Shown: positions 32,609 to 64,000 of the stretch, in pieces
Position numbering within the stretch: the stretch's first letter is position 1
Layout of the letters: the number at the start of each line of letters is the position of its first letter
Source of the DNA: a virus
Taxonomy: Duplodnaviria > Heunggongvirae > Uroviricota > Caudoviricetes
IMG/VR virus record: IMGVR_UViG_2778261638_000005
Coordinates: 6,684-70,683 of that record
Direction: 5' to 3' (one strand)
Length of the DNA: 64,000 bases
Made by a program: the position numbers and the translations under genes
Notes under the pieces: model-generated
What the model saw: the letters and a program-made list of their open reading frames with translations, nothing else
What the model was told of the DNA's origin: nothing
Databases searched by the model: none

Positions 32609-32617
32609 AAATGCTCC

Positions 32618-42895: not shown

Positions 42896-42902
42896 AACCC
42901 TC

Positions 42903-45831: not shown

Positions 45832-45843
45832 ATTTTCCCCCGG

Positions 45844-45963
45844 TTAACAGACAGAAAGATACACCACGGCACTGATGGTTATCAGAACCACAAGGGCAAT
45901 CACTTTTATCGCACTCATCAGCGTGGACGGCCCGAAACATTCATCACTGAATTTTCTGTACAT
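45844..45963 (-). CDS. small single-pass membrane peptide (not in ORF track)
   Basis: 39 aa MYRKFSDECFGPSTLMSAIKVIALVVLITISAVVYLSVC; sits between 76-aa gene and C. Confidence 0.35.
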   Translation of the reverse strand: MYRKFSDECFGPSTLMSAIKVIALVVLITISAVVYLSVC

Positions 45964-46174
45964 GGTATTTTTCTCTGTAGCGCCGGCAATGGTGGATAAT
46001 TTCTGGCATATCAACGGACTGCCAGCCTTTCATGTAATAGCTCCCGTGGGTGCCATCGTGCCCTGTGTAATCCATTGGCTTTGGTGGCGGGCCTCCGGCC
46101 TCCCGATGTAATACCTCCTGTTGTAAACGTTCGCGCCTGCCGAACTGAAAGGACGCATCCCACCCTTTACCCAT
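45944..46174 (-). CDS. hypothetical small protein
   Basis: Probable start MGKGWD at 46174, ATG overlapping upstream stop (ATGGGTAA). Confidence 0.4.
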   Translation of the reverse strand: MGKGWDASFQFGRRERLQQEVLHREAGGPPPKPMDYTGHDGTHGSYYMKGWQSVDMPEIIHHCRRYREKYHVQKIQ

Positions 46175-46727
46175 GCAGAACCTCCCGACAGGCGCTGGCG
46201 AGCAGATCCAGACGGTTAAACCAGCCATTCAGATATTTCCCCTGCGAGGCACTGGATTTGATAATCCCTGCGTAATAGCGGGAACGACGCAGGAAGCACT
46301 GCAACAGCAGCCAGTCAGTATCGGCACGCAGAACGGCTGCGCGTGTGTTTTTACCGACGATGCCATCATCATCAACACCTGCTGCCGCCTGGAGGATCTG
46401 AATCGCGCGTTTAACACCGAGCTGAACGGCAGCATCAAAAACGAATAAGGAAACGCCATCAGGCCATTCGTTACACTTTGCCGCCAGCCAGTAATCACGC
46501 CAGTAGATCTGCGCCGCCTGCTCGCGGGTTAAATCCTTAATGCGGGTATCAGGTTTTCCGTCACCGTTAACATCGGTTTTGCCATCAATAACGCCGTCGC
46601 GACGGTCAGAGATACCGTATTTCGTTTCGCCGCCACGGTCAGTGGGATCATCAACATATCCACCTTCAACATCAGGTCGTATAACGAAATTCAGCGAATG
46701 AAGGAATGCAGGGGAAAACTCAGGCAT
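46167..46727 (-). CDS. GH108-type muramidase with peptidoglycan-binding domain
   Basis: 186 aa; GYVDDPTDRGGETKYGIS motif characteristic of glycoside hydrolase family 108; C-terminal PG-binding-like region. Confidence 0.65.
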   Translation of the reverse strand: MPEFSPAFLHSLNFVIRPDVEGGYVDDPTDRGGETKYGISDRRDGVIDGKTDVNGDGKPDTRIKDLTREQAAQIYWRDYWLAAKCNEWPDGVSLFVFDAAVQLGVKRAIQILQAAAGVDDDGIVGKNTRAAVLRADTDWLLLQCFLRRSRYYAGIIKSSASQGKYLNGWFNRLDLLASACREVLHG

Positions 46728-46809
46728 GTTGCCCTCCAGTCATGAACGTTTTGTCGTCACAACAGAATATTGAGGGCGTAAAAAAAGCCGGATTAACCGG
46801 CTTTACTGT

Positions 46810-47199
46810 TTACAGAAGTGAAGGCTGGTACTGGCGGTATTTCAGCCGTCGCATCCGGCGAATGGCCTTGTAAACCGTATTGAAAGTGACACCATAACGG
46901 GTGGTCAGTTCGCTGACGTTGCGACCGTTAAAATCATTCCAGATACGCAAATCCCGAATCAGCGAGTCCAGAACCTGACCGCGCGGAATGTAGACCTGAC
47001 CGCCCCCCAGATGCTTACAGATAGCCACAACAATCTCCAGTGAATGAGCAGGATCAACACCCAGCCGGGACAATTCCCCGCGCAGTAAATCGTTCAGCTC
47101 CGCCAGCAGTGCCGGAAAGCGTGACGTATCCTCTGCGGGATTGTCAAGATGTGCCAGGATGGTGTCATCCTGCAAATCACCAAATAAATCTTCCGTCAT
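46810..47199 (-). CDS. mor: middle operon regulator Mor
   Basis: 129 aa Mor/C family; upstream of C and lysis genes. Confidence 0.8.
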   Translation of the reverse strand: MTEDLFGDLQDDTILAHLDNPAEDTSRFPALLAELNDLLRGELSRLGVDPAHSLEIVVAICKHLGGGQVYIPRGQVLDSLIRDLRIWNDFNGRNVSELTTRYGVTFNTVYKAIRRMRRLKYRQYQPSLL

Positions 47200-47747
47200 T
47201 GTGCCATCCTCCGCGTCTTTCTGGCATGGGCATAAGCCGCCGTCATGGCATCATAGCCGCGCAGTTCACGACCGGACGGACTGACCGGCAATGGAAGCCC
47301 GTGACGGGAAAAGGCTTCACGAATACAGCGGATGTGCCACTGCTTGAGTGTTTCGAGGACTGTCAGCAGCGTGTCGCCATGACACCACGCCAGTGTGGAA
47401 ACGCCCTGTCCGCCGTTGCGTTTCGCGGTCAGGCGTTGAACATATCTGTCCAGCGCCACATCACCGCCATCGGTAATAAAACCGTCTTCTGCCATCTGCT
47501 GCCAGATTTTATACACCTTCTCGCGGGGTGTGACATGCCCCTTAAACCGACGGCGTGGGTGTTTATTCTGCTTCTTAAAGCCGCGTTCTTTCATGGCATC
47601 GAGCACCTGTTTCAGTTGCGTAACCGTAAGCTCGCGGCAACTGATTTTGCCCGTTTTCTGCATCAGAAAAGCGCGGTAAGTGTCGTCGTCGAGTTGTAGA
47701 TCACGACGGGCGACATGAATTAATTTAATCAGGGATGTGCGACTCAT
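47196..47747 (-). CDS. Mu gp16-like protein (DUF1018-type)
   Basis: Probable start MSRTSLIKLIHVARRDL at 47747 with GGAGG RBS; track ORF extends further upstream. Confidence 0.65.
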   Translation of the reverse strand: MSRTSLIKLIHVARRDLQLDDDTYRAFLMQKTGKISCRELTVTQLKQVLDAMKERGFKKQNKHPRRRFKGHVTPREKVYKIWQQMAEDGFITDGGDVALDRYVQRLTAKRNGGQGVSTLAWCHGDTLLTVLETLKQWHIRCIREAFSRHGLPLPVSPSGRELRGYDAMTAAYAHARKTRRMAQ

Positions 47748-47820
47748 GATCGTACCTCCGGAAAGGGGGCGGTGCTGCAACACCGCCTGTACTATTGATA
47801 ACACTGAAAATGGAGACAAC

Positions 47821-48060
47821 ATGTCTGTAGAAAACAATGCGTCAATCACTTTTAACCTGGTTTCAGGTCTGATGGTGAAACTTGTTCGTAACAAGATTCT
47901 GACAAAGTGGGAAGCTCAATCCATACTGGCCTCTGCAATTCTTGAAAACGTTCAGAACCAGGAGGGGGTTACTGATTCGGATCTTGATGCACTTCGTCTG
48001 AAACTTGCTATGTCGGATTTCAGCGTTGAAAAAGAGCCTCCACAAGACGATCAGGCGTAA
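47821..48060 (+). CDS. hypothetical protein, opposite-strand gene inside Mu early region
   Basis: 79 aa from ATG 47821 with GGAG RBS 5 nt upstream; fills the only gap in the minus-strand early gene array. Confidence 0.4.
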   Translation: MSVENNASITFNLVSGLMVKLVRNKILTKWEAQSILASAILENVQNQEGVTDSDLDALRLKLAMSDFSVEKEPPQDDQA

Positions 48061-48316
48061 TCACGTCTGATGGTTTAAGTCCCAGCCTGCGGCGAATAAA
48101 TGCGTCGCGGGCTTTTTTGTTATCCAGTGAAACTTCATCTGCAATAATATTAATTTCATGCTGGATAATATTCACAGTAACACGAGCAGAAAGCCCTTCA
48201 CGGATAGCAATATCAATAATATCGCGCATACGCTCAAGCATTTTAGCTTTCACCAGTTCTTCATCCAGGTCTTTAGGCGTAAATTTAGTTTCATTATTCA
48301 TATTATTCACCTTCAC
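48020..48316 (-). CDS. hypothetical early protein
   Basis: 98 aa ORF. Confidence 0.45.
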   Translation of the reverse strand: MKVNNMNNETKFTPKDLDEELVKAKMLERMRDIIDIAIREGLSARVTVNIIQHEINIIADEVSLDNKKARDAFIRRRLGLKPSDVITPDRLVEALFQR

Positions 48317-48485
48317 AATTCATGCACGCCGTGTCATCGCCCATATCGCAGTGGTTGCATTTCAGCCCGCCACAATGAGGGCACTCTTTCAGATATTCAG
48401 GGGCTTCATTACCGCAGGTCGGACATGCCTGTTTCACCGTGGTAAATTTCCCCAGCCACGAATACGATGTTTCATTGTTTTCCAT
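48303..48485 (-). CDS. small zinc-ribbon protein
   Basis: 60 aa with CPTCG...CPHCG...CNHC...CMNC. Confidence 0.45.
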   Translation of the reverse strand: MENNETSYSWLGKFTTVKQACPTCGNEAPEYLKECPHCGGLKCNHCDMGDDTACMNCEGE

Positions 48486-49023
48486 TGTTTACCCCCGCCT
48501 GTTCCAGTGCCATAACTGGTGCGTCAGAACAGTCAAGAATGAGATAGCGCAGTACATGGTCGGTGATATTCCATGCGTTTGAGCTGCAAATAAAACGCCC
48601 TGGCCGGATATCAATATAAGCCATCACAAAACGGGGCATTCCCTGTTCGCACATCCTGTTATCCACTTCTGCAACGATGTGAACGGATTCACAGGTCAGC
48701 ACGCCCGTTGCAAACTCTTTTGCCAGCGCGGGGATGGTATTACCTTCCACCCAGGGTAATGAGCGACGCCAGTTGCACCACACCGCATCATCAACAGCAG
48801 GCTGCTCAGTTGCGTTTCGTCTTACAGGCGGCGTCGGACGTGGGCGCGGAACGTCATAAAATCCGTTGCATTCGGTGAGAACACCGGCATCAACCGCATC
48901 ACGCAGGAAATACACCATTGACGAGGGCAGCATATTCATTTTTTCAGCCAGAACCCCGCAGGTCAGACGCCCGTAAGCCCGTAATAATGTGCTGACACCA
49001 TTCAGAACTTTTGCATCAATCAC
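48472..49023 (-). CDS. hypothetical early protein
   Basis: 183 aa ORF. Confidence 0.45.
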   Translation of the reverse strand: MIDAKVLNGVSTLLRAYGRLTCGVLAEKMNMLPSSMVYFLRDAVDAGVLTECNGFYDVPRPRPTPPVRRNATEQPAVDDAVWCNWRRSLPWVEGNTIPALAKEFATGVLTCESVHIVAEVDNRMCEQGMPRFVMAYIDIRPGRFICSSNAWNITDHVLRYLILDCSDAPVMALEQAGVNNGKQ

Positions 49024-49026
49024 CGG

Positions 49027-49581
49027 TTATTCCTCCGTCAGCGCCACAAATTCAGAATGTTTAATGCGCTGGCATTCGGCGGGAACCGGTCCCTTCACTT
49101 CGCCAGCCAGAAGGTACACCGCAAACAAAATGCTGAATCCGTCACGGCTGTGGTGCATTTTCCACACGGACCTGATGTCAAACAGGTCAACGTCGGTAGC
49201 CACGTTAAGTTCATTGCACAGCCAGCGCGGAAAATCCGGGTTTTTTTCGAGCTGATTTTCACAGTCCCGGATGAGCTTCCCGTACTCACGGCCTGCCGGT
49301 ATTGTCATATCCGGCATTGCGCCCCATAACTGAATATCACCAATGAAAAGTGTCCTTGATTTAATCTCCCATCCTTCCGGTGGTAAGTAGCTAAACCAGA
49401 CATGCGTAACCCTCTCAGGCCCTTTGTCACCAGACAAAGACACACCGATTGCTTTCACTGATTGCTGTAATGACTCAATAATCTCACCACGCTTAACAGA
49501 AACCTCTTTCAGCCAGCGAATCGTATAACCGTTAGCGGCTGTGTCACTCAGTTTAAAATAAGCACATGCTTTCATTTTCAT
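49027..49581 (-). CDS. hypothetical early protein
   Basis: 184 aa ORF. Confidence 0.45.
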   Translation of the reverse strand: MKMKACAYFKLSDTAANGYTIRWLKEVSVKRGEIIESLQQSVKAIGVSLSGDKGPERVTHVWFSYLPPEGWEIKSRTLFIGDIQLWGAMPDMTIPAGREYGKLIRDCENQLEKNPDFPRWLCNELNVATDVDLFDIRSVWKMHHSRDGFSILFAVYLLAGEVKGPVPAECQRIKHSEFVALTEE

Positions 49582-49672
49582 TCTCTCCGGTTCTGATTAA
49601 GGCGCGAGTAGTCCTCTGACGCATCGCGCCATAATTAAACGAATGTGAATTAATTAAATATTAATGGTGGTA

Positions 49673-50197
49673 TTAAATACCGGCTTCCTGTTCAAACGGA
49701 ATAATGGAAAAATCTTCAATTCCCGATTTAACCGTAATTCCGGCAACACCTGCGACGGCTTTTGGTTCCAGTAAAATCGCCTCCTTGTTGATTTCCTGCT
49801 TCGTGCGAATAAAGCGTTGCAGGCCAAGACGCTCCAGCGTTTCCATCACTGCATCCATACCACGAATACTTACTGATGGTGGACGGACCCGCCACGATAC
49901 ATCACCGGTGACAAGATTCGCCGTCTTCACTTTGCCGCCGTTCGTCAGTTCGTCGCGGTTCGCTTCACACCATCCCTGAACGCCTTTTGAAAGGGTTTCA
50001 ATATCGGTTTTAATCGGTGCAATTCGGGCCGCAAATTTCTCCGTAATTTCCGCGATGGCATCATTCATTTCCGTTTCCAGACGTGATGCTTCGCGCTGTA
50101 AATCCCCGATGCGTTTAATATCGGTAATCACCGCATCGCGGTTTTGTGGCACATAAGCCGCTGCGGCACTCTTGATACGTTTTGCTGGTTTAGCCAT
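49673..50197 (-). CDS. gam: Gam, Ku-like DNA-end-binding host-nuclease inhibitor
   Basis: 174 aa; N-terminus MAKPAKRIKSAAAAYVPQNRDAV matches Mu Gam as recalled. Confidence 0.8.
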   Translation of the reverse strand: MAKPAKRIKSAAAAYVPQNRDAVITDIKRIGDLQREASRLETEMNDAIAEITEKFAARIAPIKTDIETLSKGVQGWCEANRDELTNGGKVKTANLVTGDVSWRVRPPSVSIRGMDAVMETLERLGLQRFIRTKQEINKEAILLEPKAVAGVAGITVKSGIEDFSIIPFEQEAGI

Positions 50198-50216
50198 AAA
50201 TTAAAGCTCCTGTTAA

Positions 50217-50516
50217 TTAATATCCGCTGTATACAATGCTGGATACAGCTCGATTGCTTAATTCCATCTTTCGGGCAATGACATGAATATCCAGTCCTTC
50301 TTTATAAAGTTCACGACATAAATATTTGTCGTGTTCACTGATTCGGTATACACACAATGATATTCCGTGCCTTCTGGCATGTGCCCGGAGGGCGGTTGTG
50401 GCGACTTTCAGTTTTTCCGCCATTTCTTCAACGGTCATTTTCCCGACGTTGGCTTCGATAAATTCCCGGTCTTCGCGTGACCAGCGCTTACGATTATACT
50501 TCATGTCAGCCACCAT
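50217..50516 (-). CDS. putative DNA-binding early protein
   Basis: 99 aa, HTH-like MTVEEMAEKLKVATTALRAHARRHG. Confidence 0.4.
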   Translation of the reverse strand: MVADMKYNRKRWSREDREFIEANVGKMTVEEMAEKLKVATTALRAHARRHGISLCVYRISEHDKYLCRELYKEGLDIHVIARKMELSNRAVSSIVYSGY

Positions 50517-50936
50517 TCAGTACAGCAGAGGCTCGCGCAGTGATGCCGGAATATGCCGCAGCGATAACTGAACCGCTTTCAGGGCAAGCGAGGAATAACA
50601 GCAGCGCGCCCAGCCTTTTGCCATTAACCGGTAATCGCGCCAGATACGCTGCCACATTTCACGGGCTTCAGGGTCTGATGCGCAGATGTATTCCCGGTCC
50701 ATGACGTACTCCCATAAATCCACGTTGAACGCACCGCCAAATGCAATGGCGCGGGATATGCTTTCGCCGCAATAACGCGCACAGATGCTGTAATGGTCGA
50801 AAGCAATCAGGTAAGTCTTTTCACCACAATCATCAACTTTTCGGGCGCAAATAAACTCGCGTAATTCACCACCGTTGTTATTGCGTTCCTGAATTCGGAT
50901 TAATGCCTGAATTTCATTTCGGATTTTGACGTTCAT
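50517..50936 (-). CDS. hypothetical early protein
   Basis: 139 aa, Cys-containing. Confidence 0.4.
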   Translation of the reverse strand: MNVKIRNEIQALIRIQERNNNGGELREFICARKVDDCGEKTYLIAFDHYSICARYCGESISRAIAFGGAFNVDLWEYVMDREYICASDPEAREMWQRIWRDYRLMAKGWARCCYSSLALKAVQLSLRHIPASLREPLLY

Positions 50937-50956
50937 TGTCAGCGTTCCTTTGCGAA

Positions 50957-51226
50957 TTAATGTTTAACCACATTCACCGGACGTGGTACTAAATCACATT
51001 CAGCTTCCATACCCACTTTCTTCATAGTGGTCAGCATCTCATCTTTGGCCTTTTTAATAATTTCAGGAGCCATAGTCAGGACTATATTTGCCAGTAAATC
51101 ATGAGGCCCGGTATTTTCCGTTGGCGAGATATCTGCAAGACATGCTTTTGCATCCAGAACTTCTCTGCGCCCATTGCAACTGTCACTACTTTCCAGCCAT
51201 GTAAACTCAAAGATAACCTTTGCCAT
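50957..51226 (-). CDS. hypothetical early protein
   Basis: 89 aa ORF. Confidence 0.4.
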   Translation of the reverse strand: MAKVIFEFTWLESSDSCNGRREVLDAKACLADISPTENTGPHDLLANIVLTMAPEIIKKAKDEMLTTMKKVGMEAECDLVPRPVNVVKH

Positions 51227-51246
51227 TTTTCTTCTCCTTATTGATT

Positions 51247-51492
51247 CTAAATAACTGCGCTGGCTTTTACCTTCGCGCCTTTTACCTGCTTAAAGAAAAC
51301 TGCGCTGCACCACGGACAACATGTCAGGGAATCCCGAATTTCCTTTTCGGGTGAGCATTGCGTCATAATCTGTTCACCGCATCCTGGGCATTTATATGTC
51401 GTCAGCGGCACCCCGTGGCACTGACAGTGTTTAACCCATTCAATATATTTTTCAGCTTTAATACACATCGTTATCTCCAGATAATCTGGCAA
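51247..51492 (-). CDS. small zinc-ribbon protein
   Basis: 81 aa, CQCH...CPGCG...CCPWC. Confidence 0.4.
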
Positions 51493-51698
51493 CCATTAAG
51501 ACGGGCCGTCCATACAGAACGGGCCACCCCGGACTTATGCTCCATAATTCTGACCGCGTTTTTTACCAGTTCCACCGGTGGGTAAGTGATTTCAAGAATC
51601 GGACGCGCCACGCCGAGATATGATTCATTTACATGACTCCCGCGCGCCTGTAACCAGTTCTGCGCATCCGTTGCCATTTTTATATTTCGTGACATCAT
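51471..51698 (-). CDS. small early protein at the Mu kil position
   Basis: 75 aa, first gene downstream of B. Confidence 0.4.
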
Positions 51699-51709
51699 TA
51701 TTTATCCCC

Positions 51710-52642
51710 TTACCACCAGTTCAGTAATTTCGGGTTGCTGTAAACCTCTTTAAAAGCTGCTTTAATGTAGCCTTTGGATAGAGGAACGCCTTTCCCGCTG
51801 GCAGCCAGCCACGCCTGATTCAGCGTATGAGTTAATACACGTAATGCACCTGGTTTTTCCGCGATGCTCTGCATGAGTGATAATTCATCTTCGCCCTCAA
51901 TGCCCCAGGCTTTCGCAATTGCCACCACGTCAGCCTTTTTGGCTTTACGTAGTTGCTTTGTTCTGGCGAAACGACTGAACAAACGTGCAAGGTCATCTGT
52001 TCCCCGGTGTGTGGCTTTGGCTAACTGGTGTGGGTTGCCAATCAATACCATCCCGACGCCGGTTGCATCCTGAATGGCGCGTAACTGCTCCAGCCCGTCC
52101 ATGCTCAGGTGGTCAGCTTCATCCACAATAACCAGACCGCGTGTGCCATTCAGTTTTTTGCGAATGGCGCGGGTCAATGCGCCTTTATTCCTTTGCGGAT
52201 TATCAATTCCCAGCGCGTCTGCCAGCTCCAGCAGACACTCAGTCACTGTTGAGTGTGCAGGGGAAAGGGTCACCATCCAGGTATTAGATACACGGTTACT
52301 GTATTCACGGGCCGCAACGGTTTTACCAACACCCGGCACACCAACCAGAACGCTGATACAGCCCATAACACGCACGGTCTGAAACAGCTCGCGCAAATCA
52401 CGGAGGGTTTGTGTTTCCACAAGTTGTGGTGCGCCAGGTAACTCCAGACTTTTTTGCCAGCTCTGATGCCACATCAGTAATTTGTCATGCATCCCTTCGG
52501 TATCACCTTTGTAACGGCCTTTGCGAAGTTCAGAAAGAGTGGCCTCCGACACCCCCGCTTCTTTAGCAATAGCGCTTTGTGTTTTTACGCCGTCAGTAAT
52601 AAGTGTGTTAATCGTGTTGAAAACATCATTAATATCGGTCAT
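51710..52642 (-). CDS. B: transposition ATPase B (target DNA activator)
   Basis: 310 aa; Walker A GVPGVGKT, Walker B LVIVDEADHL; N-terminal HTH; downstream of transposase. Confidence 0.9.
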   Translation of the reverse strand: MTDINDVFNTINTLITDGVKTQSAIAKEAGVSEATLSELRKGRYKGDTEGMHDKLLMWHQSWQKSLELPGAPQLVETQTLRDLRELFQTVRVMGCISVLVGVPGVGKTVAAREYSNRVSNTWMVTLSPAHSTVTECLLELADALGIDNPQRNKGALTRAIRKKLNGTRGLVIVDEADHLSMDGLEQLRAIQDATGVGMVLIGNPHQLAKATHRGTDDLARLFSRFARTKQLRKAKKADVVAIAKAWGIEGEDELSLMQSIAEKPGALRVLTHTLNQAWLAASGKGVPLSKGYIKAAFKEVYSNPKLLNWW

Positions 52643-52715
52643 ATTATTCTCCGTTTATTCAAATCAGCTTTGTTTCCTTCGTTTAACAGTCCGTTCCCGC
52701 GGACTGTTTTTTTAT

Positions 52716-54803
52716 TCAGGCCAGCGGATCATCCTGTTCCTGTATGGCTACAAGCTTCTGCAAACCCAGCCTGAAATCGCGTTCATAATCTTCGTCGTAA
52801 TCCTCCTCATAATCCTGTTGCTGGATGGTTACCGTATTGCCAACCGGGCGATAAACATTATCCAGCCAGGGTTCAGCCTGTTTGTGCTCCAGTATCTGAA
52901 TGCCTTCATCCTCAGCATCACGAATTTTTTCCTCAGCACGTTTGCGCATTCCTTTAATACGCTGCTGTTGTTTGTGATATTCAGCACTGACAGCAAAGGC
53001 TGCGCGTTTATTGCCGTTCCATATCGCCTCACAGATAAAGCTGCCGTCCTTGCGACGTACCGTAATTCGCTCGGCGTCATGAATGTCATAACTGATAAGT
53101 ACTTTGCGACCGTGTTCGTCACGCAACTCCGGCGCGTAGTAAATATTGTTCAGCCACTGAATTTCGCACCGTCTTACCGGGCGTTCCACCATCGGGCGGA
53201 ACATGTCGCGCAGCTCAAGATCACTCAGCCACTCAATTTCGGTGCCTTCTTCTGCCAGGCGTTTTTTTCTGAACTCTGCCGGGCTGTAATGCCGCCCGTT
53301 CGGTTTCATTGGCAGCTCAGAATGCGGGCGGTTGTTGTACCATTCCACGCCTTCACGAATAGCCTCAATAAGCTCCGCCCACGATGGTAGCTCGCGCATT
53401 GCAGCTTTCTGGCGGTCGTTCAGAGGCTTGTCCTGTTGCATGGCGTTAAACGCTGAACGCAGATCACGGTTAAGTACACGCAACGATTCCCGGTCAGCAC
53501 CCTTGCCAAAATAGGTGCGATACCTCCTGGCTATACGCATCGGCAGTGTCCGGTTCAGGCGTTCAATAATGCCGCGCCCCTGTGGATTACCGGCAATACC
53601 GGTAGGGTGTTTAATCCCCAGGCGGGGCAGAATACCCACGATCTCTTTGTCCAGTATGTCAGCCGTTTCACCAGAACCATTATCCGAGTAATACAGAAAC
53701 GGTTTTCCGTGGTTGCGAATGCCGTGCTGTATCGCACCGGCAACGGCGAACACGTTCTCGGCAAGGTCAAGACTCCAGCCAACAACAAACCGGGTTCCAC
53801 CGTCGATCACAAATGTAACTTCCGGTGAGAATGGACGCCCGTGGATCGGATGTGCACATTTCAGCTTCATACCGTGACCGTCACCAATCCAGACATAATT
53901 CACCGGCATAGCTGTCCAGTCGCGGCGGGTGAATCCTTCAAGCTGACGGTATTCACTGCCGGTAACGCGCCCTTTTTGTTTCACCACTTCCGGCAGTTTT
54001 TTCATGGCATACCGGACAACATCATAGGAAGGCATCACCTCCAGCATGTATGGTTCGTCCGCATGGCGACGCTGCCAATCAGCGACAAAATCCTCATAGG
54101 CTTCAGACATAGGCCTGCCGTTAGCCTGACGATACTGCGCCAGAAATTCAGGCAGCCAGCTAATTTCTTCCGGTTTTATTTCGTCGCGCTTTCCTGGTGC
54201 CAGTAACAGCAGTCGTTCTGCGGCATTCTGTGCTTTGTTAAACGCAGCTATCCAACGTTTGAGCGTAATTGCGCTCAGAGTTCGCTCTTTTCCTTTACGG
54301 GCATTAGCAGTAATGACCAAAGATTCCAGGCGTTCTTCCAGGTTACCCTGCGCTAACCGCGACACAATAAAACGTATAGCGCTGGCACAACTGAATCCCG
54401 GCTCCTGGCTAATTCGTAGAACTTCACAGACAAGAGCAATGCGCGCTTCTGCAACTTTACGTTGATTTTCCGTAAGCGCATTCAGACGCTCTTCTACCAA
54501 TTGTGGCGAACCGCGATATGCCTCAACAGGCTGTACAACATTTTGTTTGCGTTCACGCTTTACAGGAGGCTGGGTAGTTATCTCCCGCGGGGCGCTTGCC
54601 ATCAGTTGAGCTACATGTCGCTCACGTAACGCCCGTTGTGTAACCGGAGGGAGGCAGTCGATGCTGTATTCAATGGTTTTTGAACCCGCACGTTTGCGCC
54701 TGAAATGCTCAGATGAGGCCAGTTTCCTTATGGAATACCGCACCCCTTGCGCAGTTCCCGGCATACCTGGTAACCCTACAAGCTCATTAACTGATACAAA
54801 CAT
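52716..54803 (-). CDS. A: DDE transposase A
   Basis: 695 aa; Mu-A-like catalytic core; N-terminal end-binding domain diverged from Mu A as recalled. Confidence 0.9.
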   Translation of the reverse strand: MFVSVNELVGLPGMPGTAQGVRYSIRKLASSEHFRRKRAGSKTIEYSIDCLPPVTQRALRERHVAQLMASAPREITTQPPVKRERKQNVVQPVEAYRGSPQLVEERLNALTENQRKVAEARIALVCEVLRISQEPGFSCASAIRFIVSRLAQGNLEERLESLVITANARKGKERTLSAITLKRWIAAFNKAQNAAERLLLLAPGKRDEIKPEEISWLPEFLAQYRQANGRPMSEAYEDFVADWQRRHADEPYMLEVMPSYDVVRYAMKKLPEVVKQKGRVTGSEYRQLEGFTRRDWTAMPVNYVWIGDGHGMKLKCAHPIHGRPFSPEVTFVIDGGTRFVVGWSLDLAENVFAVAGAIQHGIRNHGKPFLYYSDNGSGETADILDKEIVGILPRLGIKHPTGIAGNPQGRGIIERLNRTLPMRIARRYRTYFGKGADRESLRVLNRDLRSAFNAMQQDKPLNDRQKAAMRELPSWAELIEAIREGVEWYNNRPHSELPMKPNGRHYSPAEFRKKRLAEEGTEIEWLSDLELRDMFRPMVERPVRRCEIQWLNNIYYAPELRDEHGRKVLISYDIHDAERITVRRKDGSFICEAIWNGNKRAAFAVSAEYHKQQQRIKGMRKRAEEKIRDAEDEGIQILEHKQAEPWLDNVYRPVGNTVTIQQQDYEEDYDEDYERDFRLGLQKLVAIQEQDDPLA

Positions 54804-54805
54804 TT

Positions 54806-55042
54806 TTATGCCACCTTACGAGCGTAACGGCTGGGCCAGATCTCCTCCGGCGCAACACCAATAGCATCAGCAATAATGCGCTCATATTTTGGGCATTTGC
54901 GGTACAGGGCATTCTTTAAAGAATCCTGGTTTAAACCGGCTTCAATGGACAGAGAGCGTAAAGTAAAACCTTTTACATGCACCGCCGCGACAACATGCGC
55001 GGGGTGCCAGTCCTGTTTAACAACTTCATTTATAGACATCAT
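54806..55042 (-). CDS. ner: Ner-like DNA-binding regulator
   Basis: Probable start MMSINEV at 55042 with AAGGA RBS; C-terminal EEIWPSRY matches Ner family. Confidence 0.8.
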   Translation of the reverse strand: MMSINEVVKQDWHPAHVVAAVHVKGFTLRSLSIEAGLNQDSLKNALYRKCPKYERIIADAIGVAPEEIWPSRYARKVA

Positions 55043-55182
55043 TCGTTTATCCTTAAAAGTTATCTGCGCGGATAACACCGCCGGATAATCTCTACAGATA
55101 AATATTTGATCACTACAAAAGAAAAGTAAAGGTGTTTTATCTCTTTCTTTGGTTGTTTTTATCTACAAAAGGATATTTCTTT
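55043..55182. promoter_or_regulatory. divergent early promoter/operator region between ner and c
   Basis: 140-bp AT-rich intergenic region between divergent repressor and ner genes. Confidence 0.5.
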
Positions 55183-55767
55183 ATGAATCATATGGTTAAC
55201 AGAAAAGAAAGAAGCACTGAAAAAGAAAGTGATTTTTCTTTTCCTGTGTTTCAAAAAGAAAGCATTAAAGAGCGCCTAGCCATGCTAATGCGCGGGCGCT
55301 CCAAGACTGCCGTGGCGAAGGCGTGGGGGCTACCGTTCTCAACACTTAACAACTACTTTGAGAAAGATGCGACACCATCTCTACAAGTAGCTAGTCAGAT
55401 TGCTTTTGCAGAAGGGGTGAGCATTGATTGGCTTGTTTTTGGCAAGGAGGATATAGAACCAATATCACCTAAAATAGATGAAAACGTCCAATTGCCCCTA
55501 GATATAACGCTACAGCGCCTTCTTGCTATACTAAGTGCTTTAGAAGCATCAGAGGCAGAGCGATTATCAAAAATCCTCGCGCTAAATGGAGCTAAGTACT
55601 TGTCACGGTTACTTGAACCAGAGAATCAAGAACTAATCCAACTTGAAGGACGAAAACGTGCAGCAGCTCTACTTTTAGATCATTTATCGGATGAAAGAGT
55701 TAGAGAGATTTTGGCAGAAATTGAAAGCGATAAACTCTCAAGTAGTTTAGAATCGAAGGCGGGCTAA
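55183..55767 (+). CDS. Mu-type c repressor
   Basis: 194 aa from ATG 55183 (AAGGA RBS); divergent from ner, reads toward left end. Confidence 0.7.
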   Translation: MNHMVNRKERSTEKESDFSFPVFQKESIKERLAMLMRGRSKTAVAKAWGLPFSTLNNYFEKDATPSLQVASQIAFAEGVSIDWLVFGKEDIEPISPKIDENVQLPLDITLQRLLAILSALEASEAERLSKILALNGAKYLSRLLEPENQELIQLEGRKRAAALLLDHLSDERVREILAEIESDKLSSSLESKAG

Positions 55768-55794
55768 TTCCAATAGCCCGCGGCTGGTTTTTTA
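55760..55794 (+). terminator. terminator-like hairpin after repressor gene
   Basis: GCGGGCTA-N7-TAGCCCGC stem followed a few nt later by TTTTTT. Confidence 0.35.
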
Positions 55795-55829
55795 ACCTGT
55801 TTAAAACGTTAAAATCGCAGAAATCAGTA

Positions 55830-56000
55830 GTATCAAATATTTTTTCGTTTTTAGCTTTCTTTGCGACAGTAGTATCAAATCACATGTTGTGCGCATAACA
55901 CTGTTTTACGTCATAACTGTTTGTTTTATCCCATCAAATCCCGTTTGATCCACTTTCCTCCCGGATTTTTCAGCAGTATCAAATGATTTACCTCTCTATA
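55830..56000. repeat. left-end transposase-binding repeats (three GTATCAAA cores, attL-like)
   Basis: Cores at 55830-55837, 55872-55879, 55976-55983; spacing 42 and 104 bp mirrors Mu L3-L2-L1; adjacent sequence GAAAAATCCGGGAGG...GATGGGAT resembles the Mu left end. Confidence 0.6.
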
Positions 56001-56639
56001 GCACCCGAAACTTCGCCCTGGTGGATGGTAAACGTCTCTCCCTGTTTCCGGAGGCGTACTCATGGGTTCTGGCTTTGCCTGTATGCTGATCACCGGATCG
56101 GGTATCTGCTGTCCGGAAGCCACCTTTTTCGCCCAATCATCGAGCAGCCTGCGCGCGTGTTTCTCAACCTCAATCTCGCTAAGCTGGCGCTGATACATTG
56201 CACGGCGGGTATCACATACGACCCAGTACATAACCGGATGCCGCCACGGGAATCTTTCGGGACCACCAGGATATAAACTTTTTTCCTTGCTGTACCGGTG
56301 AAACTCCGTCATCACATCGTCAATGGTGACGCCAAGAACCATCTTGCTGTCTTTGCACCACTTGATGAATTGCCCTGGCGACGGCCAGAACGGAGAATCA
56401 CTGGCGCGGGCGTGGCGCATACCAGCAGAAACCTGTTCACGGGTTCGGATCCCCCCTTCAGCAAACGCAGCAATCCACTGCTGTTTTGCAGCAACTTCCT
56501 GCTCTGGCGTCTTCAGGTTGGTTACCACTGCCGCCGGAAACAGTTGTTTCAACTGTTTGAAAAGGGCATCAACAAGCCTCTCTGCTGACATGTTCACTAC
56601 GTTGTCATTGTTGGTGTACTGATGCTCATAACCTGACAT
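55926..56639 (-). CDS. lambda P-like replication protein, 3' end interrupted by Mu-like insertion
   Basis: FAEGGIRTREQVSAGMRHARASDSPFWPSPGQFIKWCKD matches lambda P core; the last 24 codons are encoded by the Mu-like left end. Confidence 0.75.
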   Translation of the reverse strand: MSGYEHQYTNNDNVVNMSAERLVDALFKQLKQLFPAAVVTNLKTPEQEVAAKQQWIAAFAEGGIRTREQVSAGMRHARASDSPFWPSPGQFIKWCKDSKMVLGVTIDDVMTEFHRYSKEKSLYPGGPERFPWRHPVMYWVVCDTRRAMYQRQLSEIEVEKHARRLLDDWAKKVASGQQIPDPVISIQAKPEPMSTPPETGRDVYHPPGRSFGCYREVNHLILLKNPGGKWIKRDLMG

Positions 56640-56689
56640 GCGAGAAAGGGCCTCTCCGTCACGGTTTTGTATTGCGGTAAAAACGTTGT

Positions 56690-57505
56690 TCACAAGAAAT
56701 CCTCCCATGCTTCAGGGCTGTTCCAGTGCGGAACGTTGTTATCAGGTAATGTTGATTGCTTCTGTCTGCTAATCTGCAGCCGCCTTGCCAGCTTCTGCTC
56801 CCACTGTGCCTGATGGTATGCCTTACCCTCAGCCATCCAGTAAATTCTGAACTCTGCAAGTTCCTGTGCCGTTGGCAGACTGTCCAGGTAGATCCCCTGC
56901 AATGAGCTTTTCCGAAGAAAGTCATCTGATGGCTGCCATTGTTCATGCATGACAAATTTGCCTAATTGCCCTGGCCCACCAGGAGGAACAAAGTTATTCA
57001 TCACGGCGTTGTTTGCGCCGGGGTCATGAGGCACAGAATTCCCGTTTTTTGTCCTGCTCTCCCTCTCTTGGTTAAATGACTGGTTATATGACTGGTTCTG
57101 GATCCCGTTTTTGGGATCATTCAACATCCCGTTTTTGGGATCATTCAACATCCCGTTTTTGGTTATATTACCGTTTTCGGGAACATTACCGTTTTCGGGT
57201 TCATTCCCCCCTTCCCGGTTGCCTTTAATGTTCCCGTTTTTGGTTATATTAAGAGAGAAAACCCGCACTCTTTTCGTCGCTCCCTTTCTCTCTTCGGTAT
57301 CTGAAATAAGCCCCATTTTCATGAGCGATATAAGCCCGGCCTGCACGGTTTTTTTATTCAGGCAAGTGTCTTTAACGAGGCGTTCTATGCTGGGGTAGCA
57401 GAGGTTATATTCATCGGCTCTGTCAGCCATCGAGAGCAGTATGAGCTTTAATGATGAGCTACCTGGATCTGTCTCCCAGGCCCAATCTGTTGCATGTCTG
57501 CTCAT
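56690..57505 (-). CDS. lambda O-like replication initiator
   Basis: 271 aa; repetitive Asn/Gly-rich central region encoded by DNA iterons; precedes P. Confidence 0.75.
   Translation of the reverse strand: MSRHATDWAWETDPGSSSLKLILLSMADRADEYNLCYPSIERLVKDTCLNKKTVQAGLISLMKMGLISDTEERKGATKRVRVFSLNITKNGNIKGNREGGNEPENGNVPENGNITKNGMLNDPKNGMLNDPKNGIQNQSYNQSFNQERESRTKNGNSVPHDPGANNAVMNNFVPPGGPGQLGKFVMHEQWQPSDDFLRKSSLQGIYLDSLPTAQELAEFRIYWMAEGKAYHQAQWEQKLARRLQISRQKQSTLPDNNVPHWNSPEAWEDFL
57120..57270. repeat. replication origin iterons inside the O-like gene
   Basis: Tandem repeats such as ATCCCGTTTTTGGGATCATTCAAC (x2), CCCGTTTTTGGTTATATT, ACCGTTTTCGGG (x2). Confidence 0.7.
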
Positions 57506-58102: not shown

Positions 58103-58256
58103 AGCTATTGCCTGATATTTATTTCAGATAATAAATATTCACCCATAAGGTAACAAAAATCAAGGATAGTTACCTATGGGGTGCATTTACCTGTTGGGTA
58201 ATATTGCTTTAAATTGAATCATCTACTGATTCATATATGAGGCGATTTTCCAGAAA
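58103..58256. promoter_or_regulatory. immunity-region divergent promoter/operator
   Basis: Between divergent repressor and cro-like genes; TTACC-tgttg-GGTAA at 58187-58201 and GGTAAC...GTTACC inverted repeat at 58149-58174. Confidence 0.55.
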
Positions 58257-58841
58257 ATGAAAAATATCCAGGACGTCCGCAGGCAAAATCTCAACGACTT
58301 GATCGACCGTGAATTCAATGGTGTTCAGACGCGGATGGCAGAAAAACTTGGAACTCAGGCAAATCTGGTAAACCGCTGGGCTCTTGGCAAGAAGGTTATC
58401 GGCGACCAGGTTGCGCGAAAAATTGAAGCTGCCGCCAATAAACCACGTAACTGGCTTGATATCGATCGCTCGCTTTCTCAGGAGGGTTTTCAGCCTGTTG
58501 GACCAAGCGACATTGGTCAGCTGGCGGCTCACAACCTGGAACGCTGGATGAGTGAAAGCCGCGACCTTTCAACTCAGGGAAAACTTCACCGCGCATCCGG
58601 CGTCGCCCAGGTGACAATCAGCCGCCTGTTAAACAATGAGGTCAGCGTTTCCATTTCCACTCTGGAGAATGTTGCATCTGCATTCGGGCGTCACGGATAT
58701 GAACTACTGATTCACCCGCACGACCCTGCAACTATCAACTATGACCGCTCGCGCTACGCATTGTTACCTGAAACCGAGAAAGCAAAGATCGAAAGTTACA
58801 TTGAATTTGTCATCAACCAGAACGAAAAAAACAAACAATAA
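58257..58841 (+). CDS. putative prophage repressor (two HTH-like segments, no peptidase domain)
   Basis: 194 aa; position and orientation of cI relative to cro-like and O/P. Confidence 0.5.
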   Translation: MKNIQDVRRQNLNDLIDREFNGVQTRMAEKLGTQANLVNRWALGKKVIGDQVARKIEAAANKPRNWLDIDRSLSQEGFQPVGPSDIGQLAAHNLERWMSESRDLSTQGKLHRASGVAQVTISRLLNNEVSVSISTLENVASAFGRHGYELLIHPHDPATINYDRSRYALLPETEKAKIESYIEFVINQNEKNKQ

Positions 58842-62749: not shown

Positions 62750-64000
62750 TTATTCCCCCGCCATCCACTTCTCAAACTTCGACGGGGAGAACGGAATCAG
62801 ATCCGTATGCTCCCCGTTAATCCAGGAATCAATCATATCGGCCCACTGCTGCAACATGTAGGCGCGCTGTCTGGCATATTCCGCTTTGTTATATACGGCG
62901 CGCACACCTTTCTGCTCATGTGCCAGAGCCTTTTCAATCCAGTCTGAAGGATAACCAGCCTCATGCAACAACGTACTGGCTGTACGGCGCATATCATGTA
63001 CAGTGAAGTCCTGAATATGCTCACCATCTTCATTTATTATTTTCACCGTTCTGTCGATCAGAGAGTTCAGCGCGGCATTAGATAATGGCTTCCGGAAGTT
63101 GTAACGACCAGGAACCAGATATTCACTTCCACCAGCGCACATCTGCAACCCTACCAATATATCCTGTGCCTGTTTAGGCAGGTAAATAACGTGCGCCCGG
63201 CTTCCCTTCATGCGGTCTGAAGGAATTGTCCATGTCCATTTTTTAAAATCTATTTCATCCCACGTTGCATTGGTGAACTCGCCTTTACGAACCATAGTGA
63301 TAAGCACCAGCTTTAAAGCCATTTTCATAGTGCCCATAGCACCAATGGCATCCAGCGTACGGAAGAACAGGCCAATTTCTTCTGGTGTCAGTGTTCGCTC
63401 TCGTGGTTTAAATATGGCGATAGACGAAGGTTTAATGTCAGCCGCAGGATTAAACAAACCATGACCACGGTCATTGGCGTGACGGTATACGCTGCTGATG
63501 ATCTCCCTGGCCTGTACTGCTGTTGCCCGGCCACCGCGTTCGACAATCCGGTCACACAAATCACGAACCATCGATGTGGTAATTTCAGCCATCATTTTGT
63601 TGCCAAGAACCGGAAGTATGTCACGGTCTATCACTGCCTGCTTCATTGCGCGGGTACTTTCAGCCAGGATGACGTGTTTCATATAACTGTCGGTATGTAC
63701 CGAAAACGTCTCGGCACCACGAATCTTTTTGATACCGTCACGTTTAGCCGTAGCCGGTGACTGGCCTGCTTTAAGCAGCTTCTTTGCAGCAATCAGTTCT
63801 TCTCGAGCTTCTGCCAGGCTGATACCGTCACGCCCATACTGCCCGATTACCAGTGTTTCGCGGCGACCGTTGATACGGTAGTCATAGCGAAACGAGACCG
63901 TACCTGACGTAAGTACAGCTACATACAGCCCGTCACGATCGGAGACTTTGTATAGTTTGTCCTGCGGCTTGAGGTTTTTTAATTTTGTATCGGTAAGCAC
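62750..64000 (-). CDS. tyrosine integrase (P4-type family), start at or just beyond window end
   Basis: 416 aa; N-terminal LTDTKLKNLKP; C-terminal catalytic region with R...HDMRRT...Y motif pattern. Confidence 0.85.
   Translation of the reverse strand: MLTDTKLKNLKPQDKLYKVSDRDGLYVAVLTSGTVSFRYDYRINGRRETLVIGQYGRDGISLAEAREELIAAKKLLKAGQSPATAKRDGIKKIRGAETFSVHTDSYMKHVILAESTRAMKQAVIDRDILPVLGNKMMAEITTSMVRDLCDRIVERGGRATAVQAREIISSVYRHANDRGHGLFNPAADIKPSSIAIFKPRERTLTPEEIGLFFRTLDAIGAMGTMKMALKLVLITMVRKGEFTNATWDEIDFKKWTWTIPSDRMKGSRAHVIYLPKQAQDILVGLQMCAGGSEYLVPGRYNFRKPLSNAALNSLIDRTVKIINEDGEHIQDFTVHDMRRTASTLLHEAGYPSDWIEKALAHEQKGVRAVYNKAEYARQRAYMLQQWADMIDSWINGEHTDLIPFSPSKFEKWMAGE

What the first reader, a model, noticed from the sequence alone, without database searches (positions are those of the whole stretch)
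55926..56708. Mu-like transposable phage inserted into the replication gene P of another prophage
The lambda P-like ORF (core motif FAEGGIRTREQVSAGMRHARASDSPFWPSPGQF) runs without a stop across the Mu-like left end, so its last 24 codons (YREVNHLILLKNPGGKWIKRDLMG) are phage-end sequence. On the far side of the Mu-like element, the sequence from 19091 down to 18995 continues the same frame for about 30 more codons if one GCAC copy is removed. Genes of one resident phage flank both junctions. This is a prophage-in-prophage arrangement that likely cripples or alters replication of the resident phage.
Basis: partly seen in the sequence, partly recalled or inferred. Interest (0 to 1): 0.8.

Follow-up and report, generated by a model that had tools for sequence, protein, structure and literature searches.

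The report
Mu-like prophage splitting a resident prophage's P gene
A 36.9-kb Mu-like transposable phage has jumped into the helicase-loader gene (P) of a phiV10-like prophage in an E. coli genome, cutting off the conserved end of P and almost certainly grounding the resident phage; the call is correct, but this kind of event is already documented.

Summary
Window 19092-56000 (36,909 bp) is an apparently intact Mu-like prophage flanked by a 4-bp target duplication, GCAC. It sits inside the lambda-P-family gene of a phiV10/epsilon15-like prophage that occupies both flanks of the window.

Deleting the element plus one GCAC in silico gives a junction 99.8% identical, with no gap, to an uninterrupted "replication protein P | DUF1064" locus. 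That locus is present in 513 of 5,426 complete E. coli genomes.

The broken gene encodes 231 native residues plus 24 accidental residues read from the Mu left end. The lost 30 residues are the most conserved part of the C-terminal region. [quoted passage not shown]

The resident is therefore very likely replication-defective. Its early-right operon is also split by 37 kb, and its length is roughly doubled (about 39 to about 76 kb), beyond what its capsid can hold.

The source is E. coli GCA_002542025.1. No complete RefSeq E. coli genome has this junction.

Mu-like phages inside other prophages have already been reported in STEC (PMC10132054; LC727895), so this is a new instance of a known kind. 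Interest is low to moderate.

The parts
55926..56693 (-). P' fusion ORF of 255 aa: 231 native residues of the resident phage's lambda-P-family helicase loader, then 24 residues read from the Mu-like left end, then a stop.
   Evidence: PF06992, E = 1.7e-56 on the restored protein; lambda P in PDB, E = 6.8e-32; exact product is WP_342030123.1.
18995..19087 (-). Orphaned 3' end of P: 30 codons (MPNAATLGGITPAQWLMEEYRRGKAAGFIK) plus the stop. This is the conserved C-terminal module with the predicted terminal helix.
19088..19091 (.). Target-site duplication, copy 1 (GCAC).
56001..56004 (.). Target-site duplication, copy 2 (GCAC).
19092..56000 (-). Mu-like transposable prophage, 36,909 bp, with gene order c-ner-A-B ... 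late genes ... G segment-gin-com-mom read on the minus strand. The late region is about 98% identical to Mu/D108. The early and transposition module is of the vB_YpM_5 / Sp18 type.
55830..56000 (-). Left end of the Mu-like element. The terminus is TATAGAGAGGTAAATCATTTGATAC, and there are three ATTTGATAC repeats (presumed transposase sites) at 55976-84, 55872-80 and 55830-38.
19092..19173 (+). Right end of the Mu-like element. The terminus is TAAAGCGCGCAAAATCATTTGATAC, and there are three (A/T)TTTGATAC repeats at 19108-16, 19130-38 and 19165-73.
55183..55767 (+). Repressor of the Mu-like phage (194 aa, CI-type HTH), followed by a terminator-like hairpin at 55759-55786.
54806..55042 (-). Ner-like early regulator (78 aa, HTH_35).
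52716..54803 (-). Transposase A (695 aa; Mu-transpos_C and Mu N-terminal DNA-binding domain). It is 97% identical to vB_YpM_5 over residues 1-660 and 77.6% to the Mu-like phage inserted in Stx phages.
51710..52642 (-). MuB-like AAA+ target-capture ATPase (310 aa).
20114..20695 (-). Gin-type serine invertase (193 aa).
20750..23840 (.). Invertible G-like tail-fibre segment bounded by 58-nt inverted repeats.
19173..19910 (-). mom (DNA modification), the last gene before the right end. com lies just upstream, at about 19834-20019.
56690..57505 (-). Resident phage O-like initiator (HTH_36 + DnaT domain). It contains the ori iterons (A/T)TCCCGTTTT(T/C)GG at 57039-57254 and is intact.
58128..58156 (-). 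pR-like promoter of the resident early-right operon (TTGTTA-17-TATTAT). A tR1-like hairpin lies at 57850-57831.
   Evidence: consensus match only.
58257..58841 (+). Resident phage repressor-like protein (194 aa, HTH_3, no S24 peptidase domain).
18533..18877 (-). Resident DUF1064 gene, normally directly downstream of P and now 37 kb away from it.
1..18994 (-). Remainder of the resident phiV10-like prophage on this side: nin-like region, terminase, portal, capsid and internal virion proteins, plus tRNA-Arg at 12627-12703 (+).
62750..64000 (-). Resident phage tyrosine integrase. In related genomes it lies next to guaA.

Best explanation
**What happened.** A Mu-like transposable phage inserted by DDE transposition into the chromosome of an E. 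coli strain that was already lysogenic for a phiV10/epsilon15-like phage. It landed at codon 231/232 of the resident's 261-codon helicase-loader gene P and duplicated 4 bp (GCAC).

**Effect on the resident.** The resident's P now ends in 24 meaningless residues. It lacks its conserved C-terminal 30 residues, which by analogy with lambda P form the terminal helix that binds the DnaB DH-LH element and opens the helicase ring. Three consequences follow for the resident:
- It should be unable to load DnaB at its own, still intact, iteron origin.
- Its early-right operon is cut off from DUF1064, the nin-like genes and everything downstream by 37 kb of foreign DNA.
- It is now about 76 kb long, against about 39 kb for free phages of this type, which is too much for its capsid.

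The resident is therefore grounded, while the Mu-like phage looks fully functional.

**Shown:** the insertion, its exact boundaries, the target duplication, the mobility of the element, the homology of P, and the conservation of the lost tail.

**Inferred:** loss of P function, polarity on downstream genes, failure to package, and the order of events. The insertion must have occurred in situ after lysogeny, because the composite could not have been packaged.
For: **Excision test.** The in-silico excised junction is 99.8% identical over 100%, in one ungapped piece, to intact 'replication protein P | DUF1064' loci, which occur in 513 of 5,426 complete E. coli genomes.

**Flanks.** Both flanks are collinear with one prophage at 99.7-99.9% and overlap by exactly 4 bp.

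**Mobility.** The same element, or one with the same ends, sits at five other sites with clean 4-bp duplications. GenBank LC727895 independently annotates a 4-bp duplication for a related inserted Mu-like phage.

**The element looks intact.** All but three small non-essential early-region proteins of the plaque-forming phage vB_YpM_5 align to the element, nearly all full length at 93-100% identity. Transposase, B, Ner, repressor, Gin, Com and Mom are all recognisable.

**P homology.** PF06992 covers residues 40-200, and lambda P aligns to residues 1-204.

**The lost tail matters.** The tail MPNAAxLGxxTPAQWLxxEYxRxKxxG is invariant or nearly so across homologues down to 51% identity, while the preceding linker is variable. 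AlphaFold2 predicts a disordered linker at 211-230 and a helix at 243-257. In lambda P, the C-terminal lasso helix 211-227 binds the DnaB DH-LH element and is probably the first contact made (PMC12661323).

**Size.** Free phiV10-type genomes are 39-44 kb.

**The junction is real.** It is present in the NCBI assembly GCA_002542025.1 and in an independent Logan assembly of SRR3988035, both 100% identical to the window.
Against: - Loss of function of P' is not demonstrated. The Pfam domain and all the sequence alignable to lambda P (residues 1-204) are retained, and the C-terminal tails of this protein and lambda P align poorly. The lasso analogy therefore rests on position, conservation and a helix predicted at moderate confidence (pLDDT about 72).
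- The window does not show the whole resident prophage, so it may have been defective before the insertion.
- The two assemblies carrying the junction may derive from the same isolate.
- The packaging limit and the polarity effect rest on general phage biology and were not tested here.
Confidence: 0.85

Rival explanations
1. Assembly artefact: the draft contig wrongly joins a Mu-like prophage to a phiV10-like prophage, and P is intact in the real genome.
For: The source is a draft assembly (NMKE01000004.1). No complete RefSeq E. coli genome has the junction, and neither does any GTDB species representative.
Against: Both junctions fall exactly at the element's termini, as defined by five other insertions. 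Both carry the 4-bp direct duplication typical of this family, which a mis-join would not create. A second, independent read assembly (Logan SRR3988035) spans the left junction at 100% identity. The two resident halves are exactly contiguous once the element is removed.
Confidence: 0.03
2. The insertion is real, but P' remains functional. The C-terminal 30 residues would then be dispensable or replaceable, so replication of the resident is only mildly altered and the main damage is operon disruption and excess size.
For: The Pfam P domain (residues 40-200) and all the sequence alignable to lambda P are retained. The tail follows a disordered, variable linker.
Against: The tail is the best-conserved segment of the C-terminal third across genera: P233, G239, T242, P243, W246, L247, E250, K255 and G258 are invariant in 49 sequences. 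That conservation argues for an essential role. In lambda P the equivalent terminal helix is a principal DnaB contact.
Confidence: 0.1
3. The resident phage was already a defective remnant, so the Mu-like insertion changed nothing of consequence. It would simply be a neutral landing in dead DNA.
For: In the site-specific prophage-in-prophage cases, all host prophages were defective (PMC8112680). Many E. coli P genes are truncated or fused in other ways. The window does not include the whole resident.
Against: The 27 kb of resident DNA in the window is 99.7-99.9% identical to a full-looking prophage. That prophage and its relatives have intact integrase, repressor, O, terminase, portal and capsid genes, and the region is 98% identical to plaque-forming phages such as phiV10 and vB_EcoP_ZX5. 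No other broken gene was seen.
Confidence: 0.1

Closest known systems
Mu-like (Sp18-type) phages inserted into Stx and other prophages of STEC clonal complex 119 (PMC10132054; GenBank LC727895, LC727881)
   Same: A transposable Mu-like phage sits inside another prophage, bounded by a 4-bp duplication. The transposases are related (77.6% aa identity) and share the same TTTGATAC end motif. That paper reports 6 of 10 Mu-like phages inside mobile elements.
   Different: - The host prophage differs: a phiV10-like podovirus rather than a lambdoid Stx phage.
- The target gene differs: here it is the helicase loader P.
- The element here carries Mu/D108-type late genes (98%) rather than Sp18-type ones.
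- DNA identity to the LC727895 element is low: 2.4 kb at 80%.
Yersinia phage vB_YpM_5 / vB_YpM_6 (MT374853/4; PMC10434027)
   Same: This is the closest characterised free phage, with about 97% DNA identity over 33.7 of 36.9 kb. The repressor, Ner and transposase (97% over residues 1-660) are the same, and the late genes are Mu-type.
   Different: The B protein is only 44% identical and the last 35 or so residues of A differ. The tail-fibre and G-segment content also differs. vB_YpM_5 was isolated as a free phage on Y. pestis, not found as a nested prophage.
Bacteriophage Mu / D108
   Same: The genome organisation is the same, the late region is about 98% identical, and the Gin/G segment, Com/Mom, Mor/C and an A+B transposition system are all present.
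   Different: - The early region and ends are not Mu's. Mu does not appear among the listed tblastn hits to the transposase.
- The termini are TA...TA with ATTTGATAC repeats.
- The target duplication is 4 bp rather than Mu's 5 bp (Mu's 5 bp is from established knowledge).
- The repressor has a CI-type HTH.
Prophage-in-prophage by site-specific integration (Nakamura et al. 2021, PMC8112680)
   Same: One prophage is nested in another in E. coli, and the host prophage is non-functional.
   Different: The mechanism differs. There, integrase-mediated recombination occurs at attB copies carried by the host prophage, at fixed sites. Here, near-random DDE transposition leaves a target duplication and disrupts a gene.
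Lambda P helicase loader (PDB 6BBM, 8V9T; PMC12661323)
   Same: The interrupted gene is a P-family member (E = 6.8e-32 to lambda P). Its architecture is the same: folded domains, a flexible linker, then a short C-terminal helix.
   Different: It is 261 aa against 233 aa and only 29% identical overall. The C-terminal tails are not confidently alignable. It is paired with a DnaT-domain O-like initiator rather than lambda O.

Membership tests
Lambda P replication protein family (PF06992) | Significant match to the P profile and to lambda P itself | tested here: met
   PF06992 E = 1.7e-56 over residues 40-200. Lambda P PDB chains E = 6.8e-32 over residues 1-204. RefSeq annotates the intact orthologue as replication protein P.
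Lambda P replication protein family (PF06992) | Located directly downstream of an initiator gene that contains the iteron origin | tested here: met
   The O-like gene at 56690-57505 overlaps the P start and contains 6-7 iterons at 57039-57254.
Lambda P replication protein family (PF06992) | C-terminal helix that binds DnaB (the lasso) | tested here: inconclusive
   The tail is conserved and a helix is predicted at 243-257, in the equivalent position to lambda P 211-227. The sequence alignment to the lambda tail is weak, and DnaB binding cannot be tested with these tools.
Mu-like transposable phages | MuA-type DDE transposase plus MuB-type AAA+ ATPase next to a repressor/Ner switch at one end | tested here: met
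   Mu-transpos_C, HTH_Tnp_Mu_1, Phage-MuB_C, HTH_35 (Ner-type) and a CI-type repressor were all found.
Mu-like transposable phages | Found at different, unrelated chromosomal sites in different genomes, each with a short target duplication | tested here: met
   There are six insertion sites, each with an exact 4-bp duplication: GCAC, TTAA, GTGA, AGCC, GATA and AACA.
Mu-like transposable phages | Multiple transposase-binding repeats in inverted orientation at both ends | tested here: met
   Three (A/T)TTTGATAC repeats lie at each end. The window holds 12 matches in all against 3.55 expected, and no shuffle in 100 reached 12. Binding itself was not tested.
Bacteriophage Mu in the strict sense (Mu, D108) | 5-bp target duplication, TG...CA termini and a MuA/Mu c early region | tested here: not met
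   The duplication is 4 bp and the termini are TA...TA. The early region has no megablast match to Mu or D108, whose matches stop at query position 20604, which is window 51703. The late region does match at 98%.
phiV10 / epsilon15-like podoviruses (resident prophage) | Nucleotide-level identity to phiV10-type structural and packaging genes, with the integrase next to guaA | tested here: met
   Identity is 97.9% over 89% of window 1-16400 to phiV10, and 93% coverage to vB_EcoP_ZX5. The near-identical prophage in NZ_AP022036 abuts guaA. guaA itself lies outside the window.
Prophage-in-prophage in the sense of Nakamura 2021 | Integrase-mediated insertion at an attB sequence carried by the host prophage | tested here: not met
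   The inserted element has no integrase. It uses a DDE transposase, leaves a 4-bp duplication and inserts at varied sites.

The most novel reading that the evidence does not exclude
The orientation of the insertion could couple the two phages. The Mu-like early operon (ner-A-B) points the same way as the resident's pR-O-P operon, and no terminator-like site was found on that strand between the P' stop and ner/A. Derepression of the resident could then send transcripts through the Mu left end, antisense to the Mu repressor gene and sense to the transposase genes. The Mu-like phage would be induced whenever the crippled resident tries to wake, which would make it a parasite of the resident's induction signal.

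A second possibility is that P', which keeps its N-terminal domains but lacks the DnaB-binding tail, acts as a dominant-negative that blocks replication of superinfecting phiV10-like phages.
Probability: 0.07. Interest if true: 0.6.

Novelty: new member of a known kind. Interest (0 to 1): 0.27.

Why it matters
This is a clean, base-pair-resolved example of one temperate phage inactivating another by transposition.

- It shows how a resident prophage can be grounded in a single step.
- It dates the event to after lysogeny in this lineage.
- It provides a natural truncation of a P-family helicase loader at the linker/terminal-helix boundary, which could be used to test whether the C-terminal module is the DnaB anchor outside lambda.

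It does not change current understanding. Mu-like phages insert almost anywhere, and nesting inside prophages has already been reported.

Tried and rejected
- **Source genome by junction scan.** An exact 37-nt pattern against GTDB species representatives found nothing, and no complete RefSeq E. coli genome has the junction. The source was found instead by exact look-up of the fusion protein. The 260-aa version starting at the ATG is not on record, which supports the GTG start.\n- **5-bp target duplication, as in Mu.** I tested this by shifting the assumed element ends by one base either way. Only two of six insertions could be read as 5 bp, and only by chance identity with the element's terminal base. 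All six fit 4 bp, and a GenBank annotation agrees.\n- **TG...CA ends hidden in the flank (TGCAC / TGC).** This was rejected because it would require a deletion of target bases rather than a duplication.\n- **SOS coupling via a LexA-like resident repressor.** The resident repressor-like protein has HTH domains only and no S24 peptidase, so the simple version of that idea is weakened.\n- **Direct alignment of the lost tail to the lambda P lasso.** MAFFT aligned it poorly, so I rely on conservation, position and predicted structure instead.\n- **Fold search.** I did not run a fold search of the model, because sequence homology to lambda P was already decisive.
Full report

The ORF at 55926-56708 on the minus strand exists and contains the quoted motif. 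Reading the minus strand across 56004 to 55926 gives ...GGG TGC | TAT AGA GAG GTA AAT... The Cys codon (56003-56001) is the last native codon. It is followed by 24 codons (YREVNHLILLKNPGGKWIKRDLMG) and a stop, all of which lie in the terminal 75 bases of a Mu-like element.

On the far side, 19087-18998 encodes 30 more residues (MPNAATLGGITPAQWLMEEYRRGKAAGFIK), with a stop at 18997-18995. The frame is restored only when one of the two GCAC copies (19088-19091 and 56001-56004) is removed.

The likelier start of the gene is GTG at 56693, for three reasons. It has a GGAGGA Shine-Dalgarno sequence and overlaps the upstream stop. It matches the RefSeq annotation of the intact orthologue. The 255-aa product from that start is on record, while the 260-aa version from the ATG is not. 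The native protein is therefore 261 aa, and the fusion has 231 native plus 24 foreign residues. A 24-codon run-on before a stop is what chance gives, so the tail has no significance of its own.

**2. The excision test.**

The 1,200-bp junction made by deleting 19092-56004 in silico was searched against 5,426 complete E. coli genomes. 516 records in 513 genomes hold it over at least 80% of its length. The best are 99.8% identical over 100% in one ungapped piece, annotated 'replication protein P | DUF1064 domain-containing protein'.

The real junction (55400-56600) is found in none of them. Each genome matches either the Mu half or the P half, and the break falls at window 56000/56001.

A local BLAST against the best uninterrupted prophage (NZ_AP022036, locus L002) gave three collinear matches:
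- Window 1-16482 matches L002 1032-17513 at 99.95%.
- Window 18082-19091 matches L002 19591-20600.
- Window 56001-64000 matches L002 20597-28596 at 99.93%.

The two junction matches overlap by exactly 4 bp of target.

**3. What the inserted element is.**

Window 19092-56000 (36,909 bp) has the gene order of Mu on the minus strand:
- Repressor at 55183-55767 (on the plus strand, so divergent).
- Ner-like gene at 54806-55042.
- Transposase A at 52716-54803 (695 aa; Mu-transpos_C plus the Mu N-terminal DNA-binding domain).
- MuB-like ATPase at 51710-52642.
- Gam and Mor/C-type activators, lysis genes, terminase, portal, protease, major head protein, sheath, tube, tape measure, baseplate and tail fibre.
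- A 3.0-kb invertible segment bounded by 58-nt inverted repeats (20750-20807 and 23783-23840).
- Gin at 20114-20695, then com and mom at 19173-19910.

The element is a mosaic. From the right-hand part up to window 51703 it is about 98% identical to Mu and D108. The last 4.3 kb (B, A, ner, repressor and the left end) has no megablast match in Mu or D108 and instead matches Yersinia phages vB_YpM_5 and vB_YpM_6 at about 97%. Its transposase is 77.6% identical to that of the 'inserted Bacteriophage Mu-like phage' annotated inside two Stx-converting phages, and about 43% identical to the Haemophilus SuMu transposase.

Compared with the plaque-forming vB_YpM_5, nearly all proteins align full length at 93-100% identity. 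The exceptions are three small early-region proteins with no match, several tail-fibre and small early proteins that are more diverged or only partly aligned, B (44% identical), and the last 35 or so residues of A, which differ together with B. Nothing looks broken, so the Mu-like prophage is probably functional.

**4. Ends, mobility and target duplication.**

Each end carries three (A/T)TTTGATAC repeats in inverted orientation. These six make up half of the 12 matches in the whole window, against 3.55 expected, and no shuffle in 100 reached 12.

Only 12 of 5,426 complete genomes carry this left end. I fetched five of them. The insertions lie between ydcV and patD, in ydcO, in glpT, in rlmB and next to sslE. 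In every case the element starts TAAAGCGCGC... and ends ...CCTCT(A/T)TA or a close variant, and it is flanked by an exact 4-bp direct repeat: TTAA, GTGA, AGCC, GATA and AACA, with GCAC here. Shifting the assumed ends by one base does not yield a consistent 5-bp duplication.

The GenBank record LC727895 independently annotates 4-bp 'duplication due to insertion of Mu' for the related element, whose ends carry the same TTTGATAC motif. This lineage therefore differs from Mu proper, which makes 5-bp duplications and has TG...CA termini (established knowledge). The point has already been recorded by others, at least in the annotation.

**5. What the resident is.**

The flanks belong to a phiV10/epsilon15-like podovirus. 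Window 1-16400 is 97.9% identical over 89% to phiV10 and covers 93% of the query against vB_EcoP_ZX5. Free genomes of this type are 39-44 kb. The near-identical uninterrupted prophage in NZ_AP022036 sits next to guaA.

Its early-right operon runs on the minus strand, in this order:
- A pR-like promoter at 58156-58128.
- A cro-like ORF.
- A tR1-like hairpin at 57850-57831.
- A 66-aa ORF.
- An O-like initiator at 56690-57505 (HTH_36 plus DnaT domain), which holds 6-7 iterons at 57039-57254 and is therefore the presumed origin.
- P, DUF1064, nin-like genes, and then the packaging and structural genes.

The divergent 194-aa repressor-like protein has HTH domains but no S24 peptidase. In short, the resident is a phiV10-type phage with a lambda-type O/P replication module.

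**6. What the insertion does to P.**

The restored protein matches PF06992 over residues 40-200 (E = 1.7e-56) and lambda P over residues 1-204 (E = 6.8e-32). The insertion point, after residue 231, therefore lies beyond everything that aligns to lambda P. That alone might suggest a harmless truncation, but the family alignment says otherwise.

In 15 and then 49 homologues, reaching down to 51% identity (Klebsiella, Pantoea, Erwinia, Cronobacter and others), the linker at 205-230 is variable in sequence and length. The last 30 residues are strongly conserved (MPNAAxLGxxTPAQWLxxEYxRxKxxGxIx). P233, G239, T242, P243, W246, L247, E250, K255 and G258 are invariant.

An AlphaFold2 model of a homologue 86% identical to the restored P, with the same tail, shows a disordered stretch at 211-230 and a helix at 243-257 (pLDDT about 72).

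This is the architecture described for lambda P. [quoted passage not shown]

The Mu-like phage has cut the gene exactly between the linker and this module. I infer that P' cannot load DnaB. This is inference from conservation, position and analogy, not a demonstrated result.

**7. Other consequences (inferred).**

- The 37-kb insert separates O-P' from DUF1064 and all downstream genes of the same transcription direction.
- The composite is about 76 kb against a 39-kb genome, far beyond the few per cent of extra DNA that a tailed-phage capsid tolerates (general knowledge).
- Mu-type elements do not excise precisely at useful frequency, so the damage is effectively permanent.
- Because the composite could not have been packaged, the insertion must have occurred in this lineage after lysogenisation by the resident.

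**8. Source, and how widespread the arrangement is.**

The exact 255-aa fusion protein is WP_342030123.1 ('replication protein P [Escherichia coli]'). It is encoded on contig NMKE01000004.1 (140 kb) of GCA_002542025.1 and on a 1,967-bp contig of a Logan assembly of SRR3988035. Both are 100% identical to the window across the junction. This argues against a mis-assembly, although the two may come from one isolate. The arrangement looks confined to one strain or clone.

**9. Comparison with what is known.**

Nishida et al. (PMC10132054) report that, in 13 closed genomes of STEC clonal complex 119, 6 of 10 Mu-like phages were inserted into mobile genetic elements, and that several Stx phages carry Mu-like insertions. 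The deposited records mark the inserted region and its 4-bp duplications.

'Prophage-in-prophage' is also an established term for site-specific integration into attB copies carried by defective prophages (PMC8112680), which is a different mechanism.

The present case is a new instance in three respects: the host prophage type, the target gene and the mosaic of the element. It is not a new kind of arrangement.

**10. Rivals.**

- **Mis-assembly (about 3%).** This is contradicted by the family-typical duplication at both termini and by the second assembly.
- **P' still functional (about 10%).** This is possible because the alignable core is retained, but the conservation of the tail makes it unlikely.
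- **Resident already defective (about 10%).** This cannot be excluded because the window lacks part of the resident. However, the 27 kb that is visible is 99.7-99.9% identical to an intact-looking prophage and 98% identical to plaque-forming phages.

**11. The most novel reading not excluded.**

The Mu-like early operon points the same way as the resident's pR operon, and no terminator-like site was found on that strand between the P' stop and ner/A. Derepression of the resident might therefore read into the Mu-like element and induce it. Alternatively, P' might act as a dominant-negative against related superinfecting phages. Nothing here tests either idea, and I put their joint probability at about 7%.

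**12. Verdict.**

The mechanism is ordinary transposition with a well-defined, probably inactivating, hit on a helicase loader. Novelty: a new member of a known kind. Interest: low to moderate.

Noticed in passing
window 19088-19116 and 55976-56004; loci L001, L003-L006 (ends), L007 6089-6092 / 45430-45433: This Mu-like lineage makes 4-bp target duplications and ends in TA...TA. Mu itself makes 5-bp duplications and has TG...CA termini. The pattern was seen in six independent insertions and is annotated as 4 bp in LC727895. I did not find the target-duplication length discussed in the papers I read.
   Followed up: yes
window 51703-52830: There is a mosaic joint inside the transposition module. 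Relative to vB_YpM_5, the last 35 or so residues of transposase A and the whole B protein (44% identity) are exchanged together. This is consistent with co-variation of the A C-terminus with its B partner. The late region is about 98% Mu/D108, while the early region is not Mu-like at the DNA level.
   Followed up: partly
window 20114-23840: A Gin-type invertase lies next to a 3.0-kb invertible tail-fibre segment bounded by 58-nt inverted repeats (20750-20807 and 23783-23840). Part of the segment (21580-22466) is inverted relative to the copy in E. coli S6, which has no annotated invertase.
   Followed up: partly
window 57039-57254: Six to seven iterons, (A/T)TCCCGTTTT(T/C)GG, lie inside the resident's O-like initiator gene and encode an Asn/Gly/Pro-rich repeat in the protein. 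This is presumably the resident phage's origin, arranged as in lambda (ori inside O).
   Followed up: partly
proteins P0048-P0074 (other E. coli genomes): Many E. coli P proteins are 98% identical to this one over only about 62% of its length. They then continue into unrelated sequence (DUF551, PF12236 and others) or stop. P therefore seems to be broken or recombined in several other ways in other prophages.
   Followed up: no
window 16483-18081: This is the only stretch of the resident prophage in the window with no match to the otherwise 99.9% identical prophage of NZ_AP022036. It is a replaced block in the nin-like region between DUF1064 and the small terminase.
   Followed up: no
window 12627-12703: tRNA-Arg (anticodon TCT) is carried by the resident phiV10-like prophage, on the strand opposite to the surrounding genes. 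It is also annotated in related prophages and phages.
   Followed up: partly
window 58257-58841: The resident's repressor-like protein (194 aa) appears to have two HTH-type regions and no S24 self-cleavage domain. If the resident is induced at all, induction probably does not work by RecA-stimulated autocleavage.
   Followed up: partly
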